In this document: piece by piece, positions 39,083 to 55,901 of the stretch
Layout: every line of letters starts with the position of its first letter
How positions within the stretch are numbered: the stretch's first letter is position 1
IMG/VR virus record: IMGVR_UViG_3300006802_000073
Location: 32,001 to 96,000 of that record
Origin: a virus
Length of the DNA stretch: 64,000 bases
Direction: 5' to 3' (one strand)
The notes under the pieces: model-generated
What the model was told of the DNA's origin: nothing
Database searches by the model: none
The model's input: only the letters and a program-made list of their open reading frames with translations
Made by a program: the position numbers and the translations under genes

Positions 39083-39383
39083 CCGTGTCCTTTATAGCTC
39101 TAGCAATAAAATCAGAAATGATACATTCTATTAATTCATCAAAATCTTTTGTTTTCATTTCTTCAGTTGATATTGTATCAGGAGTATTGAGAAAATGAAA
39201 TCCTACATCTAAACTTTCATCCTTATAATCAATATTCTCAATCTCTATTACTGTATCTTTGAACTTACCCTTTAAGATTTCAAATCCCCAATGTGGAACT
39301 TTTTCTTCTTTAGTTTCTTCTAAAGAATAATCTACATTCCAAACTCTATAAACATCATTCAACATTTTCATACTCCTCATCAA
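39069..39383 (-). CDS. Hypothetical protein at the T4 gp40 position
   Basis: Synteny between uvsX and 41; acidic. Confidence 0.4.
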   Translation of the reverse strand: MMRSMKMLNDVYRVWNVDYSLEETKEEKVPHWGFEILKGKFKDTVIEIENIDYKDESLDVGFHFLNTPDTISTEEMKTKDFDELIECIISDFIARAIKDTDDKY

Positions 39384-40401
39384 TATCTGAATCAGAGTTC
39401 ACCATATTAGTTTGACTCATCTTATAGGTTTGTTCAATATATTGCTTAAATTCATTTGATTCTATAATAGAAGACCAAAATTCTTTTGTATAGGTATCTT
39501 TTTGTCTATATTTGGAAGTATCTCCTGCTTTTTGATACCATCCATTGCTAGGTTTAGTAACAAATCCACCTTCAAGGGCGATATCAAGTAATCCTGACCA
39601 TTTGCTAATGCCACCTTCAAATGATACCTCAACAGGAATTTTTGATTTTTCTCGCACATGACGAGATTTCTCTACATTGATAATAAACTTATAACCTGTA
39701 AGCTCAGAACCATCTTTTTCTTGTTGTCGTCCGATAATATAGATGTTATCACTACCATAATATGCACCGGTTCCTCCACCTACAATATCTTTAGGAAACA
39801 TACCAATTTCTTTATAAGTATGATTAACTACAATCATAGGGATATTTTTAATTGTCAGATGTGGAGTAACCATTCTAAATAAAGACTTTAATTGTTTTGC
39901 TCTAGACATATCAGCAACAGATTTACCTTCTAAAGCATCTTCAACCTCTTTCTTTGATGCAAGATTACCGATAGAGTCAATTACAACTATAACACGATCA
40001 TTTCTATTAATATTAGATAATTGAGACATTACATCATGTTTTAATTGCTCAATATCTGTAATCGGAGTATGTAAAACTTTATCTGTATCAATACCAAATG
40101 ATTTAAAATATGTTTGTGGAGAGCCAAATTCTGAATCATAAAACAATACAACAGCATCTTCATATTTGGTAAGATAAGATTTAGCTAACATCAAGGAGAA
40201 AGCACTTTTAAAATGTTTTGAAGGTCCTGCAAACATAGTAAGACCTGGTGCTAATCCTCCATCTAAACTACCAGATAAAGCAACATTTAAAATTGGAATT
40301 GGTGTAGGAATTAAATCCTTTTCAATGAAGAATTTCGATTCAGTGAGAATTTCTGATTCTTTAATTGTAGATGATTTTTTTAATTTTTCTAGTAATGACA
40401 T
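39355..40401 (-). CDS. uvsX: RecA-like recombinase UvsX
   Basis: GPSKHFKS, YDSEFG, DSIGNLASKKE. Confidence 0.96.
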   Translation of the reverse strand: MSLLEKLKKSSTIKESEILTESKFFIEKDLIPTPIPILNVALSGSLDGGLAPGLTMFAGPSKHFKSAFSLMLAKSYLTKYEDAVVLFYDSEFGSPQTYFKSFGIDTDKVLHTPITDIEQLKHDVMSQLSNINRNDRVIVVIDSIGNLASKKEVEDALEGKSVADMSRAKQLKSLFRMVTPHLTIKNIPMIVVNHTYKEIGMFPKDIVGGGTGAYYGSDNIYIIGRQQEKDGSELTGYKFIINVEKSRHVREKSKIPVEVSFEGGISKWSGLLDIALEGGFVTKPSNGWYQKAGDTSKYRQKDTYTKEFWSSIIESNEFKQYIEQTYKMSQTNMVNSDSDIDEEYENVE

Positions 40402-47798: not shown

Positions 47799-48374
47799 TC
47801 AAAAATATCTTTCTTCATTTTTTTCTCCCTCTAAATCGTTTATATAATCAGCAACAGATTGTTCTCCATACAGTTCTTTGCCATGTTCTACACAAAGTGT
47901 ACGCATCCAACCCATATTGAACACATGAACATCTTTTGTTGTACCACATTGTTCACATACTGAATAACTAATACTTTCTACAATAGCAATCGTTTGATGT
48001 TGTTCATCAGTTGCAGATTGAACATAAAAACGTAGCCCACCATACTTTTCTTTAACTTGTAAGGCTACAGGAATATGACACTCATCTAATTCTTGTTTGC
48101 GTTTTTCTAGGTTTTCCTGAGTATATTTTTGATGATGCCATTCACGCCAAGCAGATTTATCTTTTACTTCGAGCATTTGTTTATAATGATCATAATCTTG
48201 CTTAGCTAGAGTATAATCACGCATTAGTTGCTGACAAAGAAAACGAATGATACTATACCAACCGTCACCAATATCAAAGCCCCAACACATTGCTGTAGAG
48301 CGTTTATCTGCATAGCGATTTTTGAAAATTTCAGGAAATTCTTTACACAGCTTTTGATCTAGATTAGGACTCAT
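47799..48374 (-). CDS. Conserved phage hypothetical protein
   Basis: GDGW...QVKEKYGGLRFY...CEQCG...WMRTLC..H. Confidence 0.7.
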   Translation of the reverse strand: MSPNLDQKLCKEFPEIFKNRYADKRSTAMCWGFDIGDGWYSIIRFLCQQLMRDYTLAKQDYDHYKQMLEVKDKSAWREWHHQKYTQENLEKRKQELDECHIPVALQVKEKYGGLRFYVQSATDEQHQTIAIVESISYSVCEQCGTTKDVHVFNMGWMRTLCVEHGKELYGEQSVADYINDLEGEKNEERYF

Positions 48375-48528
48375 TTTTCTTTCTTAAAGAGAACGAACCA
48401 TCGTTATTGTTAATCCATTCTATAGTATCGCCTATATTCCATCCTAAGGTTTCGCATATCTCATCGCCTAGTGGAAGTATCAGATCACCATTTTCATCTT
48501 GTTCTAGTTGAATTATTTTTTTCATCAT
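48364..48528 (-). CDS. AbrB/MazE-like DNA-binding protein (not in ORF track)
   Basis: GDLILPLGDEICETLGWNIGDTIEW. Confidence 0.6.
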   Translation of the reverse strand: MMKKIIQLEQDENGDLILPLGDEICETLGWNIGDTIEWINNNDGSFSLRKKNES

Positions 48529-51140
48529 TCGGCTCCAAAATCTCGTTTGATCATAAACTTCACATAATCGATATCGCCCGAATCATCGATGTATGATAAA
48601 CATTGTTTCAAAATCAACTCGGCAAACTTTATCGTTTCTTTTTCACTCAAACGCCATTCTCCTTCACCATCATACGATAGCATGCCATTGGCGGCTTGAT
48701 AAGCAAGTTCTCTAATTCGTTCGTTCATTTTTCTCTCATTATTAGTCGGTCTTGGTTTTTTTCAAGGCATGTGTCGCAGACAAAAATATTCAAAGTAGAT
48801 CCATCCATTGGATCAAAATAAGTAGAACCATAATGGCCCAAGCTCGAAAAGTGAACAGCACCACTGGGCTGTAGATTTTCATCAAACACTTTTTCTAACT
48901 TTTTATTACAACAAATACAAAACATTTCGCTCTCATCGTGAATTTCATGAAATGTTTTTGATACACTTTCCAAAGAATCTACTAAATCGTTCATCTGTTC
49001 AAATTACATCAACGACCACATCATAGTCTTTTTCATCATTCATTCTTCAACTCCGAAATCAGAAAGAATACCAAAATGATGGCGAATCAGATCGCCAGTG
49101 TCGGGGAGAACAAGACCTCCGAGTGCCTCGGCAAAAAAAACATACCGATCACGATTTGAGTCCGCAATTGAGGCACACTGCTCTACAATCTCCTCAACAA
49201 ACCGAAGAAGCTCACTCTCGGAGAACTCATAATACTGACAAGCCTGTCGTGCAATCTTTCGGCGACTCTGGTTGATCACCATGGGTAGGATCAGATCTTT
49301 ATCCATTACCACCACGTCCTGTGATTTTCCACCACATAATAATTAGTGCCCATCAATTACTCTCCCACGCCCAATTAACAATAACCCAATCGTCGATGCA
49401 GTCCTGTATAGTATAGTTAGCATCAACATGCTCTTTGCCAAACTTTTTACACATCTCGTTATACCAATAAGGCCAATATTCTTTTCTGATATCTTCTTCT
49501 GATTTTGTTTCTACATAATCATCAATACCTGGTTCAGTTATATACTCATTATAAGAATAATATTTCATAGATTCAACTTCCAAAATTCCATTATCTTAGT
49601 TTCTATATCGTCTATTTTATTCTGTTTACAGAATTGAGTCAACAAGTGAGTATCATGATCTTCGGACATTATTGAATTATGAATTGTCAAATATCCAGCC
49701 ATTTGTGCTTGTGCATATGCTTCTGGTCCAAATTCAAAAACACTATATAATGTACCACGATAACTTCTTTGTTCTTCTATTTCCGCTTTGTAGATTCTTC
49801 GACTTACTGCACAAAAGACTTTTAACTGATCTTCTTTGGAAAGTGAATTCCAATATTGTTCTGATTCCTTTTCGATCTCATCGTGAATTTCATGAAATGT
49901 TTTTGATACACTTTCCAAAGAATCTACTAAATCGTTCATCTGTTATGTTTCTCCTTTCAACAAGTCACTTTCGTGGGACACTTTGGATTGTTACACACAT
50001 ATCCATTGACACCACTAATACCACAGACAGGACAACTACCATCCCATTTGAAAGGATTTTGTGGAATCACTGGCTGATTGATAGTCGGATCATTCAAATA
50101 ATCACGAACATCCATTAGCAGACGCATCACCTCTTGATGATCCATCAACTCAGGGTTGAACAAACCACCATTGGCAAGATACTCTGTAATACGATTCAAT
50201 AATTCATAACGATTGATCATACTTCAACTCCGAAATGTTTCTTAATTAAATCAAAAGCCTGACCACGACTGACCATATCACGCAACATAGGGCTTAATGC
50301 TACCCCACATTCCCGAACAATCAACTCGGCGAACTTGTGTATATGATCCATGTGGTGCCCAGGATTCAATTCGTTGGGGTTAGTTTTATACTTGAAACTA
50401 AAAACTTCTAACGCAAGTTCTTTAATTCGTTCGTTCATTTCTCAATCCAATTATAAAAGTTTACAACTTCATCTACACTATTCGCCCAACGATCAAACTC
50501 TTTCAATGGGCAACTTACATCTACATAAAACTCACCAATAGCACCCCACCAACGAAAACGGTATGCCCGCCCTTTATAATGGCTTACAGAACCATACTTG
50601 AAGAAATCACGACCAATATTATGTCCACGCTTCTTCAGAAAGGTCTTGAACTGACTTGGGCTCATTCCCCATAACTGATCACGAGAGGGACGCTTGGCTT
50701 TGTATTTGAATTTCATTCTTCAACTCCGAAATATTCTTTTACCTTCAGTGATGCGTGTTTATAGTAGTTGTGGCGTCCGTAGTCTGGAAACTCGTCGAGC
50801 ATTTTGGCGCATTCCCGAACAATCAACTCAGCGAACTTTTCTAAACATTCTTCATCAGCATGACCGGATAAGAAATAGTGTCGTGGTGTTTCATGTTCCA
50901 CATAGTTCAGCATACCCGAGTCTAACCCAAGTTTAAGAATTCGTTTGTTCATTCTTCAACTCCAAAGTGTTCTAATAGTTCCCTGGCGTGAAATTCGCCA
51001 TCCTTAAATGGCGAGTTGTAATTAACTTTGGCGCATTCCCGAACAATCAACTCGGCGAACTCTTGCTTATCTTCTTCGGTCCAAAGTAGACCGCGAAACC
51101 CATTTTGGGTCTGAATCAGTTCAAAAATTCGTTCGTTCAT
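48525..51140 (-). other. Array of small translationally coupled ORFs including five MNERI/FAELIVREC/HFGVEE paralogues
   Basis: 48525..48728, 49040..49315, 50217..50438, 50713..50952, 50949..51140 share DNA modules; promoter at 51167..51195. Confidence 0.8.
48931..49944. repeat. Exact 69-bp direct repeat (48931..48999 and 49876..49944)
   Basis: Encodes the identical N-terminus MNDLVDSLESVSKTFHEIHDE of two otherwise unrelated ORFs. Confidence 0.9.
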
Positions 51141-51594
51141 AACAATTCCTTATTCAATATATTAATATTATACAAGCATTTTACTTAAATGTCAAGTCTT
51201 AAATAATGGAAGTGCTTTTTCATAAAACTCATTAACATTCAATTCTGGAAACTTCATTAAAGCATTATTCCATCTCCATTGTATGGTATCCCAATGTTCT
51301 AATACTCTATCTCTATTAATTCTAAAAACACCTAAATTTGTGTTGAAATGAACATGCTGAACTAAACACATAAAATTGATCTCTACCATTCGTTTGTTCC
51401 TACAACATTCGTAGTCACAGTCACAAGCTCATCCTTAATTCTATAAGGAAATTCAATATCGAGAGTGTAAGCTATACCACTTGTATCATGTTTGATGATT
51501 GTAAAACTGTCTACTTCATATTTGTCCAGTTTTTCCACCAAACATCTAATATCATTTCTATTAAGAATCATTCTCATTTTAATTCCTCACATAA

Positions 51595-53164: not shown

Positions 53165-53432
53165 AGTATAAGTGCTTCTTTCCCGCGGCGGTAACTATAG
53201 CGCATCAGAAACCGCGTAGTCGCAATCCCATCACGCACGCCCCATCCGCTTCACGACCGGGAAAGATTTTCGCATTGCCAGCGTCAGTTAGGTTGGACTG
53301 CGGTTTTCACCGGAGCAGATTCTCCATTCCCATTACTAGGAGTAGGCACTTGCTCAAACCACCCGTAGGTATCATCCTACTTCTCATCGTGCGGGTCACA
53401 CTAGCTGTTGATTAGACAGCACGTTCGTCTAT
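53165..53432 (-). ncRNA. Putative ~270-nt structured non-coding RNA of unknown class
   Basis: GC-rich island with many complementary stems, inside the tRNA cluster. Confidence 0.7.
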
Positions 53433-53579
53433 AACAATTCTATTTCCAAAAGAATCCTATAATAAATCCTGTTATTTTTAATAACTTTCTTTTAATCTTA
53501 CGTCTAAATAATGATCCTAAATCTCTACTACGTTGAAATTCTTTTCTTAATAAACTATTCATATATTCAAATAAAATTT

Positions 53580-54116: not shown

Positions 54117-54680
54117 TTAAAATAATGTTTCTTCTCTATTAAAAAATGTTGGTGAACGTACAAATTTAAATGTTTCTACAGATTCACTAAATTCAAAAGA
54201 TCTATGCCCCCTCATTGCAGTATGAAATTCTCCTGCTCTATTAGCATGGAATGTTCCAACATCATGAATTTTATTCAATCCTGGAAATCCGTCTTTTCTT
54301 GTTCCATGCAACTTTGCGTTTAAATCTGTTGATGATTTATGAAGAATGGAATCTTGATTATAATGTTTTCCATGTTTTTTCAAAAAAGACAATAACTCCC
54401 CTTTATCATCACCTTTCTTACCGATAACTAGAAAAGAATCTTCATCTACTGCTTTTGCATTTTTGGTGCCATGGTTCTCTATGTATCGACCTTTTACTTT
54501 AATAAAACCATAACCTGCTGTTTTTATATGATTTTCCAATTCTTTGTTATTAGATTGATTTTCTTTAGAAGTATTCTCACCTCTATGTGCAGTTATCATA
54601 CCTATATTTCTGTTTTTAACATGAGAATTTACACGAGATAAACTCGATTCATGTAAAAGATCTGCTACTTTTTTAGTCAT
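54117..54680 (-). CDS. Conserved T4-like hypothetical protein
   Basis: ESSLSR...GMITAHR...YNQDSIL. Confidence 0.65.
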   Translation of the reverse strand: MTKKVADLLHESSLSRVNSHVKNRNIGMITAHRGENTSKENQSNNKELENHIKTAGYGFIKVKGRYIENHGTKNAKAVDEDSFLVIGKKGDDKGELLSFLKKHGKHYNQDSILHKSSTDLNAKLHGTRKDGFPGLNKIHDVGTFHANRAGEFHTAMRGHRSFEFSESVETFKFVRSPTFFNREETLF

Positions 54681-55221: not shown

Positions 55222-55788
55222 TTACGTACTTTTTTGTTTAGATCTTGAATAATCTGGTAAAAAATCTGAAAGAAATTTCATCTGATCATGCAATATACTT
55301 CTATTCTGTAATATTAATCCTTCAGCTCTATCAGGAGTATATGGTATATATAATAATTGCATATTGCATTCTTCTAATAACATATCATCTTTATAAGAAT
55401 TGCATCGAGTACATGCAGTAACACAATTTGTCCAAGTATTAAGTCCACCTCTTGAAACCGGAACAATATGATCTTTTGTTAATCTGTTATCAGAATACTT
55501 TTTTCCGCAATAAGCACACAGATAAAGATCTCTTCTAAAAAGATTTCTATTACTTAATGTAGGAGTTCTACCTTTATAATAAAAATTAGTTTTAAGTGCA
55601 ATGATAGATGATATCTCAATTTTTGATTGAAGACCTGTTATTCTAGAAATTCCACCTCTAAACATAAAGTCTTTATCACCATATTCCCATGCAATCAAAC
55701 CTTTACATTTTAAAATAACTGCATCTTGCCATGGTAACCATGTATGAGGATATCCTCCTTTATTCAAAGCTAAAATGAGATTTTGCAT
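55222..55788 (-). CDS. HNH endonuclease
   Basis: RRDLYLCAYCG...DHIVP.SRGG..W.NCVTAC..CN. Confidence 0.9.
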   Translation of the reverse strand: MQNLILALNKGGYPHTWLPWQDAVILKCKGLIAWEYGDKDFMFRGGISRITGLQSKIEISSIIALKTNFYYKGRTPTLSNRNLFRRDLYLCAYCGKKYSDNRLTKDHIVPVSRGGLNTWTNCVTACTRCNSYKDDMLLEECNMQLLYIPYTPDRAEGLILQNRSILHDQMKFLSDFLPDYSRSKQKST

Positions 55789-55806: not shown

Positions 55807-55901
55807 TGGTCCTCCCAGTAGGATTCGAACCTACGACCTCACGCCTATCTAGCGCTAATACTGGGTATAAACCAGCTGCTCTACCGCTGAGCTATAGGAG
55901 G
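55807..55901 (-). tRNA. tRNA-Ile(TAT) with an extended variable region
   Basis: GCTGG-TT-TAT-AC-CCAGT; canonical D/T arms; 95 nt; promoter at 55921..55948. Confidence 0.75.

What the first reader, a model, noticed from the sequence alone, without database searches (positions are those of the whole stretch)
48525..51195. Modular mini-gene array with three constant DNA blocks and variable inserts
Seen: five ORFs built from block A ATGAACGAACGAATT (MNERI), block B TTCGCCGAGTTGATTGTTCGGGAATG (FAELIVREC; near-identical at ~50308, 50810, 51034) and block C TTCGGAGTTGAAGAATGA (FGVEE*). The segments between blocks are unrelated. Block C contains the GGAG RBS and ATGA start for whichever gene follows. 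DNA-level identity of short blocks around divergent inserts suggests recombinational shuffling. Inference: a diversifying scaffold library, e.g. anti-defence or host-takeover binders, whose repeats also capture passenger genes.
Basis: partly seen in the sequence, partly recalled or inferred. Interest (0 to 1): 0.7.

Follow-up and report, generated by a model that had tools for sequence, protein, structure and literature searches.

The report
Recombining mini-protein gene array in phage
An uncultured freshwater phage carries an operon, behind a promoter of early type, of small genes from a very large unnamed protein family; its three framework blocks are kept nearly letter-for-letter in DNA and mark the crossover points where half-genes, whole genes and unrelated passenger genes are swapped.

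Summary
The genes lie on the minus strand. Five paralogs (63-88 aa) share block A (MNERI), block B (KFAELIVREC) and block C (HFGVEE-stop, which carries GGAG and an ATGA stop/start overlap). They sit behind a perfect sigma-70-type promoter.

The family has no Pfam or PHROG model. It has at least 8,430 representatives (50%-identity clusters) in metagenomes and is essentially absent from GenBank phage records.

- In 294 proteins the N and C variable halves assort almost independently. Of 897 pairs alike in N, 774 are unrelated in C. There are six complete four-combination squares.
- Block codons are conserved against the background usage (GCC 83% against 19%, CGA 95% against 11%, GGA 100% against 21%).
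- A near-identical phage in two other lake metagenomes has the 93-aa passenger gene moved, with joints inside blocks C and A.
- In other phages the block C junction precedes 158 non-family ORFs, including ligases and a peptidase.

The phage has a RecA/UvsX-type recombinase. No reverse transcriptase or integrase was found in the 87%-complete record.

What the proteins do is not shown. "Small helical early binders" is inference only.

This scan has already noted the same family on other DNA (42 windows, 31 genomes), and one follow-up there reached the same reading.

The closest known system is the PeSL cassettes of T4-type phages. This is a new variant of that kind.

The parts
51167..51195 (-). 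Sigma-70-type promoter (TTGACA, 17 nt, TATAAT; 12 of 12 matches) 27 nt upstream of the first family gene
50949..51140 (-). g1, family member of 63 aa. Block A 51126-51140, block B 51034-51059, block C 50949-50966.
50713..50952 (-). g2, family member of 79 aa. Block A 50938-50952, block B 50810-50835, block C 50713-50730. Its N module (cluster N0) has 29 different C partners in the sample.
50435..50716 (-). p1, passenger ORF of 93 aa. It starts at the ATGA of g2's block C and ends in an ATGA overlap with g3. It lies between g4 and g5 in a near-identical phage, and homologs sit in other arrays (L044, L062, L056).
50217..50438 (-). g3, family member of 73 aa. Block A 50424-50438, block B 50308-50333, block C 50217-50234. 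N cluster N1 has 18 C partners; C cluster C0 has 14 N partners.
49957..50220 (-). p2, passenger ORF of 87 aa, Cys-rich at the C-terminus. It starts at the ATGA of g3's block C.
49565..49939 (-). p3, passenger ORF of 124 aa. It carries the shared 75-nt 'MNDLV' leader, and its 3' end looks like a decayed junction block. Homologs in L017, L055 and L013.
49353..49568 (-). p4, passenger ORF (ATG at 49568). Its homologs in L048 and L024 follow a block C junction.
49040..49306 (-). g4, divergent family member of 88 aa from the ATG. No block A, diverged block B, doubled block C, 46% G+C.
48725..48994 (-). p5, passenger ORF of 89 aa with the same 75-nt leader as p3 (99% identical). It is replaced by p1 in the relative seen in runs X3 and X4.
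48525..48728 (-). g5, family member of 67 aa. Block A 48714-48728, diverged block B, shortened block C that overlaps the start of the next ORF.
48364..48528 (-). p6, ORF of 54 aa coupled to g5 by an ATGA overlap. Weak AbrB/MazE-type match. Homologs in L079 and L019.

Best explanation
The stretch is an operon of a large phage with T4-type replication genes. It is driven by one perfect sigma-70-type promoter, and its genes are chained by ATGA stop/start overlaps. Five of the genes belong to a very large, unnamed family of phage proteins of about 65-90 aa.

Each protein has three framework blocks: an N-terminal helix (MNERI.EL), a central helix (KFAELIVREC) and a C-terminal HFGVEE. Two unrelated variable segments lie between them.

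Shown here:
- The blocks are conserved at the DNA level, synonymous sites included, across many phages.
- Similarity between relatives stops at the blocks, so N halves and C halves reassort combinatorially at block B.
- Whole genes and unrelated passenger genes are exchanged at the composite block C/block A junction. That junction is at once a C-terminus, a Shine-Dalgarno site, a stop and the next start, so an incoming gene stays translationally coupled.

Inferred:
- The crossovers are made by ordinary homologous recombination. The phage has its own RecA/UvsX-type recombinase.
- The blocks stay uniform because only cassettes with consensus blocks can keep spreading and being converted.
- The proteins are small helical binders made early in infection (host takeover or counter-defence), with the blocks as core and the variable segments as surface.

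The confidence given (0.7) is for the statement as a whole. The recombination and mosaic part alone I put at about 0.85, the binder function at about 0.35-0.4.
For: Family and size:
- No Pfam or PHROG model.
- At least 7,889 hits in the word-indexed search, which was capped.
- 8,430 representatives at E<=1e-3 and 1,490 at E<=1e-10 among 1.84 billion.
- Arrays of up to 14 copies per 12 kb in other viral contigs.

Mosaicism, in 294 distinct proteins:
- 774 of 897 pairs with N-variable identity >=70% have C-variable identity <=30%.
- 578 of 750 pairs alike in C are unrelated in N. Only 77 pairs share both. The correlation is 0.12.
- 171 N clusters and 182 C clusters; cluster N0 has 29 C partners.
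- Six complete four-combination squares.

DNA-level conservation, over 135-181 distinct genes from about 80 contigs:
- Block B: TTC 80% (background 33%), GCC 83% (19%), GAG 87% (26%), TTG 92% (24%), CGG 54% of Arg codons (5%).
- Block A: CGA 95% (11%), AAC 94% (37%). Block C: GGA 100% (21%), GTT 97% (37%). An ATGA overlap in 138 of 179 genes.
- Between members with unrelated N and C from different loci, codon identity at identical residues is 0.73-0.83. Background usage predicts 0.41-0.49.

Rearrangement:
- A 1,048-nt contig in run X4 (at most 3 differences per piece) reads window 48417-48712, then 50423-50711, then 49039-49501.
- That order is g4, p1, g5, with the joints in block C (21 shared letters) and block A.
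- The block C joint is also seen in run X3.

Passengers:
- The junction motif precedes 78 family genes and 158 non-family ORFs.
- These include DNA ligase, RNA ligase, an M24 peptidase, an FAD oxidoreductase and MazG.

Proteins are real:
- pN/pS is 0.21-0.26 in homologous modules.
- The AlphaFold2 model is helical, pLDDT 76.8.

Context:
- Perfect promoter.
- RecA/UvsX-type gene at window 39355-40401.
- No reverse transcriptase or integrase found.
Against: - Function is untested. There is no structural or sequence relative of known function.
- All relatives come from short-read metagenome assemblies. Shared blocks of 26-45 nt could in principle cause chimeric joins. Against that, many combinations recur on several contigs and in different archives, the blocks are shorter than a read, and the rearranged joint is seen in two samples, though of one study (P3).
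- The reads were laid as contigs, not raw reads, so within-population heterogeneity was not measured.
- Part of the conservation in block C is explained by its Shine-Dalgarno role, and in block A perhaps by translation initiation. Only block B lacks such an explanation.
- Early expression rests on a promoter consensus match alone. Across other loci, promoter-like sites upstream of uncoupled family genes were not clearly enriched (5 of 74 against 3.3% in the control).
Confidence: 0.7

Rival explanations
1. The nucleotide conservation of the blocks reflects a function of the DNA or mRNA itself, such as ribosome binding, a processing site or a small hairpin. Recombination would then be only an occasional by-product.
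For: - Block C holds GGAG 7 nt before the next ATG, and Gly is GGA in 77 of 77 genes ending in the full block.
- Block B can draw a short hairpin.
Against: - The block B hairpin is no better than shuffles (z -0.9 and -0.15). Its 3' arm alternates GTT and GTG (60 against 58), which breaks a pair in half the members.
- No Rfam family matches.
- This reading does not explain the near-independent assortment of N and C, nor the joints inside the blocks.
Confidence: 0.12
2. This is an ordinary tandem paralog family. Duplication and divergence left strongly constrained motifs, and the DNA identity is due to recent duplication or codon preference.
For: - The five genes are tandem paralogs with conserved motifs.
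- The modules are under purifying selection.
Against: - The block codons are the rare ones of these genomes.
- Members with wholly unrelated variable halves, in different phages, still share 73-83% of block codons.
- All four combinations of non-homologous halves exist. A tree without recombination cannot produce that.
Confidence: 0.06
3. The mosaic combinations are chimeras made by short-read assemblers that jump between co-occurring phages at the shared blocks.
For: - Logan contigs of the source run break exactly at the blocks (table 8).
- The blocks are shared by many contigs in one sample: depth 166 over 50213-50339 against about 23 beside it.
Against: - The blocks (26-45 nt) are shorter than reads and than the final k of common assemblers.
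- Identical combinations recur on up to 8 contigs and in several archives.
- The 21-nt shared joint is shorter than Logan's k of 31 (its k is from my own knowledge, not a tool result), so the words that span the joint are unique. The joint is seen in two samples.
- Reading frames are always kept.
Confidence: 0.05
4. A dedicated diversification machine, such as a diversity-generating retroelement or a shufflon/integron-type site-specific recombinase, acts on the blocks.
For: Short constant repeats bracketing variable segments resemble the substrates of such systems.
Against: - No reverse transcriptase and no tyrosine recombinase were found in the 87%-complete record.
- The variable segments differ in length and are unrelated, not point-mutated copies.
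- The repeats are direct, not inverted.
Confidence: 0.03

Closest known systems
PeSL (promoter-early stem-loop) cassettes of T4-type phages (Arbiol et al. 2010, PMC2839356; Comeau et al. 2014, PMC4122927)
   Same: - Short conserved DNA motifs repeated in the plastic regions of large phages.
- Recombination between copies inserts, deletes and replaces small genes of unknown function between close relatives.
- The motif carries expression signals, so the incoming gene is expressed.
   Different: - PeSLs are intergenic promoter-plus-terminator units, so they act on transcription.
- Here the repeats are coding. The junction is a Shine-Dalgarno site plus a stop/start overlap, so it acts on translation.
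- A third repeat inside the gene shuffles half-proteins.
- No promoter or terminator is found in the blocks.
gp38 adhesins of T-even phages: glycine-rich motifs separating hypervariable segments (Trojet et al. 2011, PMC3157838; Tetart et al. 1998, as cited there)
   Same: - Conserved motifs form the structural core, and variable segments between them are interchangeable.
- Recombination between conserved motifs swaps the segments.
   Different: - gp38 is a single virion gene with a known role in receptor binding.
- Here there is a multi-copy array of tiny non-structural genes with no sequence relation to gp38.
- The junction also captures unrelated genes.
Antigenic-variation cassettes of bacteria (Neisseria pilE/pilS, Borrelia vls); from general knowledge, not tested here
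   Same: Conserved blocks flank variable mini-cassettes and guide gene conversion.
   Different: - Those systems copy silent donor cassettes into one expression site within a single bacterial genome.
- Here every copy is an expressed-looking gene, and exchange appears to run between phages.
Diversity-generating retroelements
   Same: Targeted variability within a constant protein scaffold in phages.
   Different: - They need a reverse transcriptase and a template repeat, and they make adenine-specific substitutions.
- No reverse transcriptase was found in the 87%-complete record, and the variable segments are not point-mutated copies.

Membership tests
Unnamed phage family 'MNERI / KFAELIVREC / HFGVEE' | Three framework blocks in order, in a protein of 60-90 aa | tested here: met
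   g1, g2 and g3 are complete. g5 has A, a diverged B and a shortened C. g4 has a diverged B and C only. Profile E-values are 1e-31 to 4e-23.
Unnamed phage family 'MNERI / KFAELIVREC / HFGVEE' | Block C ends in an ATGA overlap that starts the next gene | tested here: met
   Four of five genes in the window. 138 of 179 genes in other loci.
PeSL cassettes | The repeat contains a sigma-70-like early promoter | tested here: not met
   There is a single promoter upstream of the array. None lies within blocks A, B or C.
PeSL cassettes | The repeat contains a stem-loop terminator | tested here: not met
   The blocks fold no better than shuffles, and no terminator-like site lies at the blocks.
PeSL cassettes | Recombination between copies makes indels or replacements between close relatives | tested here: met
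   The X3/X4 variant has p1 between g4 and g5, with joints in blocks C and A.
Diversity-generating retroelement | Reverse transcriptase gene | tested here: not met
   No PF00078 match in the 149-kb record, which is 87% complete.
Diversity-generating retroelement | Template/variable repeat pair differing by point changes | tested here: not met
   The variable segments differ in length and show no similarity.
Integron or shufflon type site-specific systems | Tyrosine recombinase | tested here: not met
   No PF00589 match in the record.
gp38-type modular adhesin | Sequence homology to gp38 or a tail-fibre context | tested here: not met
   No Pfam or PHROG match. The neighbours are replication and nucleotide-metabolism genes.
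Anti-defence proteins (anti-CRISPR, anti-restriction and the like) | Demonstrated inhibition of a host defence, or homology to a known inhibitor | not testable with these tools
   No homolog of known function. Needs an experiment.

The most novel reading that the evidence does not exclude
Freshwater phages share a natural combinatorial library of two-part mini-binders. The framework blocks double as portable recombination and translational-coupling signals. A community-wide pool of N and C half-modules, plus captured genes, would then be reassorted to keep pace with host defences or targets. The cassette, not the gene or the genome, would be the unit that spreads.
Probability: 0.3. Interest if true: 0.85.

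Novelty: new variant of a known kind. Interest (0 to 1): 0.72.

Why it matters
Exchange of genes at short conserved motifs is known in T4-type phages, but so far for intergenic promoter/terminator cassettes and for one adhesin gene. Three things are different here.
- The exchange points lie inside coding sequence.
- One of them splits a protein into two freely reassorting halves.
- Another is a C-terminus, a ribosome-binding site, a stop and a start at once.

The family is very large (thousands of 50%-identity clusters), has no name in Pfam or PHROGs, and was found only in uncultured, mainly freshwater, phages.

It gives a concrete, testable case of how phages build new small proteins and keep newly acquired genes expressed. 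If the proteins are binders, it is also a ready-made natural scaffold library.

Tried and rejected
The contigs of the hybrid proteins P0003 and P0029 could not be fetched.
- **Homodimer prediction for g3**: no verdict. It is not used as evidence either way.
- **Searches for a known relative**: nothing came from Foldseek against the PDB, an HMM search of PDB sequences, the ESM Atlas, Pfam on 63 members, or PHROGs. Foldseek against BFVD returned only uncharacterized proteins of uncultured phages.
- **tblastn of two members against 50,697 GenBank phage records**: no match at E<=0.1 (one partial match at E=0.2). blastn of 8 kb around the array matched only tRNAs and one short unannotated stretch.
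- **Scan of 185,579 species genomes**: only 18 loci, all short contigs of freshwater MAGs of inconsistent taxonomy. These are probably mis-binned phage DNA, so they give no host.
- **Are arrays in other phages generally headed by a sigma-70-type promoter?** 5 of 74 against 3.3% in random controls. Not convincing, so it is not claimed.
- **RNA structure in the blocks**: not better than shuffles. No Rfam match except the tRNA.
- **Breakpoint mapping between IMG/VR loci**: similarity ends near the edges of block B, but only 12 and 24 pairs were available and the window method is crude.
- **Short "joints" with a side under 35 letters**: these are other family members that match only the blocks. 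They are not counted as deletions.
- **P0185** (676 aa): an unrelated repeat protein, a spurious partial match.
- **G+C of family genes**: it varies less than that of their phages (slope 0.24). The constant blocks contribute to this, so it is only supportive.
Full report
**What is there.**
All genes of the stretch lie on the minus strand. Five ORFs form one family: g1 50949-51140, g2 50713-50952, g3 50217-50438, g4 49040-49306 and g5 48525-48728. A profile built from them finds exactly these five in the whole 149-kb virus record, which is 87% complete.

- Block B has three copies with 0-1 mismatch. None appeared in 100 shuffles.
- Block C has four copies.
- Block A has four copies.

g4 is a divergent member. 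It has no block A, a diverged block B and a doubled block C. g5 has a diverged block B and a shortened block C.

Between the family genes lie unrelated ORFs (p1 to p6). From g1 to the 191-aa ORF after p6, 11 of 13 starts read ATGA. Six of them (g2, p1, g3, p2, p4 and p6) verifiably overlap the stop of the ORF before. Block C provides GGAG 7 nt before each such start.

A perfect sigma-70-type promoter (12 of 12) sits at 51195-51167, just upstream of g1. The junction motif occurs nowhere else in the 149-kb record.

**Context.**
- The window holds a T4-type DNA polymerase, a DnaB-like helicase, ribonucleotide reductase and a ligase.
- It holds a RecA/UvsX-type recombinase at 39355-40401.
- It has five tRNA genes.
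- Within 5 kb of the array are an S-adenosylmethionine lyase family gene and an HNH endonuclease.
- G+C is 32% for the window but 39-46% for the family genes.
- The DNA is found in freshwater metagenomes.

**The family.**
- Pfam and PHROGs give nothing.
- A word-indexed profile search returned 7,889 hits and was capped.
- An exhaustive HMM search of 1.84 billion cluster representatives found 8,430 at E<=1e-3 and 1,490 at E<=1e-10.
- IMG/VR holds at least 345 encoding stretches. In the 80 loci fetched there are 287 family domains, with up to 14 per 12 kb.
- GenBank phage records hold essentially none.
- Among 185,579 species genomes there are only 18 loci, all on freshwater MAG contigs of inconsistent taxonomy.

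They do not. I split 294 distinct proteins at block B and compared the variable parts separately.
- Of 897 pairs with >=70% identity in the N part, 774 have <=30% in the C part.
- Of 750 pairs alike in C, 578 are unrelated in N.
- Only 77 pairs share both, and the correlation is 0.12.

Clustering gives 171 N types and 182 C types. The N type of g2 has 29 different C partners, and the C type of g3 has 14 N partners.

Six complete squares exist in which two N types are each seen with the same two C types. The types are not alignable with each other, so this needs recombination at or near block B.

Every abundant module of the window is found elsewhere with another partner. For example, P0003 joins g2's N half to a g5-type C half, and P0007 joins another N half to g3's C half.

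Scars fit this picture:
- fused tandem dimers (P0001, P0020, P0122, P0188);
- a triplicated block B (P0124);
- doubled block C (g4, P0027).

**Test 2: do the blocks show normal synonymous divergence?**
They do not. I looked at 135-181 distinct genes from about 80 contigs. The block codons are nearly fixed, and they are mostly the rare codons of these genomes.

| Block | Codon | Share in block | Background |
|---|---|---|---|
| B | GCC | 83% | 19% |
| B | GAG | 87% | 26% |
| B | TTG | 92% | 24% |
| B | TTC | 80% | 33% |
| B | CGG | 54% of Arg | 5% |
| A | CGA | 95% | 11% |
| A | AAC | 94% | 37% |
| C | GGA | 100% | 21% |
| C | GTT | 97% | 37% |

Between members from different loci whose N and C parts are both unrelated, 73-83% of block codons are identical at identical residues. 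Background usage predicts 41-49%. The value for demonstrably homologous variable modules is about 70%.

Those modules are under purifying selection (pN/pS 0.21-0.26, with pS about 0.5). They therefore encode real protein, and the diversity is reassortment, not hypermutation.

**Direct rearrangement.**
I laid contigs of four freshwater runs on the stretch.
- A 1,048-nt contig of run X4 matches the window with at most 3 differences per piece, in the order 48417-48712, 50423-50711, 49039-49501.
- On the coding strand this is g4, then passenger p1, then g5. In the window p1 lies between g2 and g3, and p5 lies between g4 and g5.
- One joint lies in block C, with 21 letters common to both sides. The other lies in block A.
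- The block C joint is also in a contig of run X3.
- These are contigs, not raw reads, and X3 and X4 belong to one study.

**Passenger capture.**
In the fetched loci the junction motif (2 mismatches or fewer) precedes 78 family genes and 158 non-family ORFs. Of the non-family ORFs, 128 are 40 aa or longer.

They include an ATP-dependent DNA ligase, a T4-type RNA ligase, an M24 peptidase, an FAD oxidoreductase, a P-loop kinase-like protein and MazG. Some non-family ORFs themselves end in the GVEE-stop block.

The window's passengers p1, p2, p3, p4 and p6 have homologs in other loci fetched through their family genes. Those of p1 (in L044) and p4 (in L048) are seen to start at a block C junction.

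**Mechanism.**
No reverse transcriptase and no tyrosine recombinase was found in the record. The repeats are direct. The variable parts are unrelated in sequence and length. A retroelement or a site-specific system is therefore unlikely.

The phage has its own RecA/UvsX-type recombinase. I infer ordinary homologous recombination at blocks of 26-45 nt, both between tandem copies (unequal exchange, giving hybrids, fusions, gains and losses) and between co-infecting phages.

The uniformity of the blocks is most simply explained by two things. The exchange itself converts them, and only cassettes with consensus blocks can keep moving.

Part of block C's constraint is its Shine-Dalgarno role. Block B has no such explanation:
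- its small hairpin is no better than shuffles;
- half the members break the hairpin (GTT against GTG);
- Rfam finds nothing.

**What the proteins do.**
This is not shown. The AlphaFold2 model of g3 is helical (residues 3-16, 26-47, 49-53 and 58-69; pLDDT 76.8, pTM 0.57). It has no match of known function.

By position along the chain, the invariant residues fall in the first, second and last helices, and the variable parts fall in the loop after helix 1 and the stretch after the conserved Cys. I had no coordinates to check how they pack.

Combined with the promoter of early type and the many variants per genome, I commit to [quoted passage not shown] as the most likely role. I put this at about 35-40%, as inference only.

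**Comparison with what is known.**
- The closest system is the PeSL cassette of T4-type phages (PMC2839356, PMC4122927). It shows the same logic of repeated motifs that mediate modular shuffling and carry expression signals. However, PeSLs are intergenic promoter/terminator units, and those defining features are not met here.
- The gp38 adhesin (PMC3157838) shows conserved motifs separating swappable hypervariable segments, but in one structural gene.
- This case combines both ideas in coding DNA and adds a junction that works through translation.

**Earlier notes of this scan.**
The same family has been noted on other DNA: 42 windows of 31 genomes. One follow-up (e1-5337252) reached the same reading. 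I had written PeSL down as the likely closest system before seeing it, and I tested the claims independently here.

**Caveats.**
- All relatives are short-read assemblies. Chimeras at shared blocks are possible in principle, though recurrence across contigs and archives and the block lengths argue against it.
- The background codon usage comes from stop-to-stop frames of 200 aa or more in the loci.
- The top-120 database hits are biased towards the window's own module types.

Noticed in passing
window 48925-48999 and 49870-49944 (minus-strand ORFs 48725-48994 and 49565-49939): A second mosaic pair. A 75-nt direct repeat, 99% identical, encodes a shared N-terminus of about 25 aa (MNDLVDSLE...) on two otherwise unrelated ORFs. 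The source run's contig for this repeat has about double depth.
   Followed up: partly
window 53422-53464: A 43-nt stretch, 72% identical to the region around g1's start and its upstream leader (51130-51172), but without an ATG. It may be a relic of another array head or a repeated leader (family D6).
   Followed up: no
window 54117-54680 and 55222-55788: An S-adenosylmethionine lyase family gene (the family of the T3 anti-restriction enzyme) and an HNH endonuclease gene lie among the tRNA genes, a few kb upstream of the array's promoter.
   Followed up: no
window 55807-55901: tRNA-Ile with anticodon TAT is called at 95 nt, unusually long for a tRNA. It may hold an insertion or intron.
   Followed up: no
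window 48364-48528: An ORF of 54 aa, coupled to g5, with a weak AbrB/MazE-type (SpoVT-AbrB) match below the Pfam cut-off (E 5e-4). Homologs in L079 and L019.
   Followed up: partly
window 47799-48374; L067 1712-2251: The 191-aa ORF just downstream of the array looks by eye like the 179-aa ORF that follows a junction motif in L067 (shared CWGF.GDGW stretch). Neither has a Pfam match.
   Followed up: no
P0124, P0027, P0001, P0020, P0122, P0188 (database proteins): Family members with a triplicated block B, a doubled block C, or two complete units fused in frame. These look like scars of misaligned exchange at the blocks.
   Followed up: partly
window 50213-50339: In all four freshwater runs the summed contig depth over g3's C module plus block B is 5-25 times that of the flanks. 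Many different contigs in these lakes therefore carry DNA at least 90% identical to this module.
   Followed up: partly
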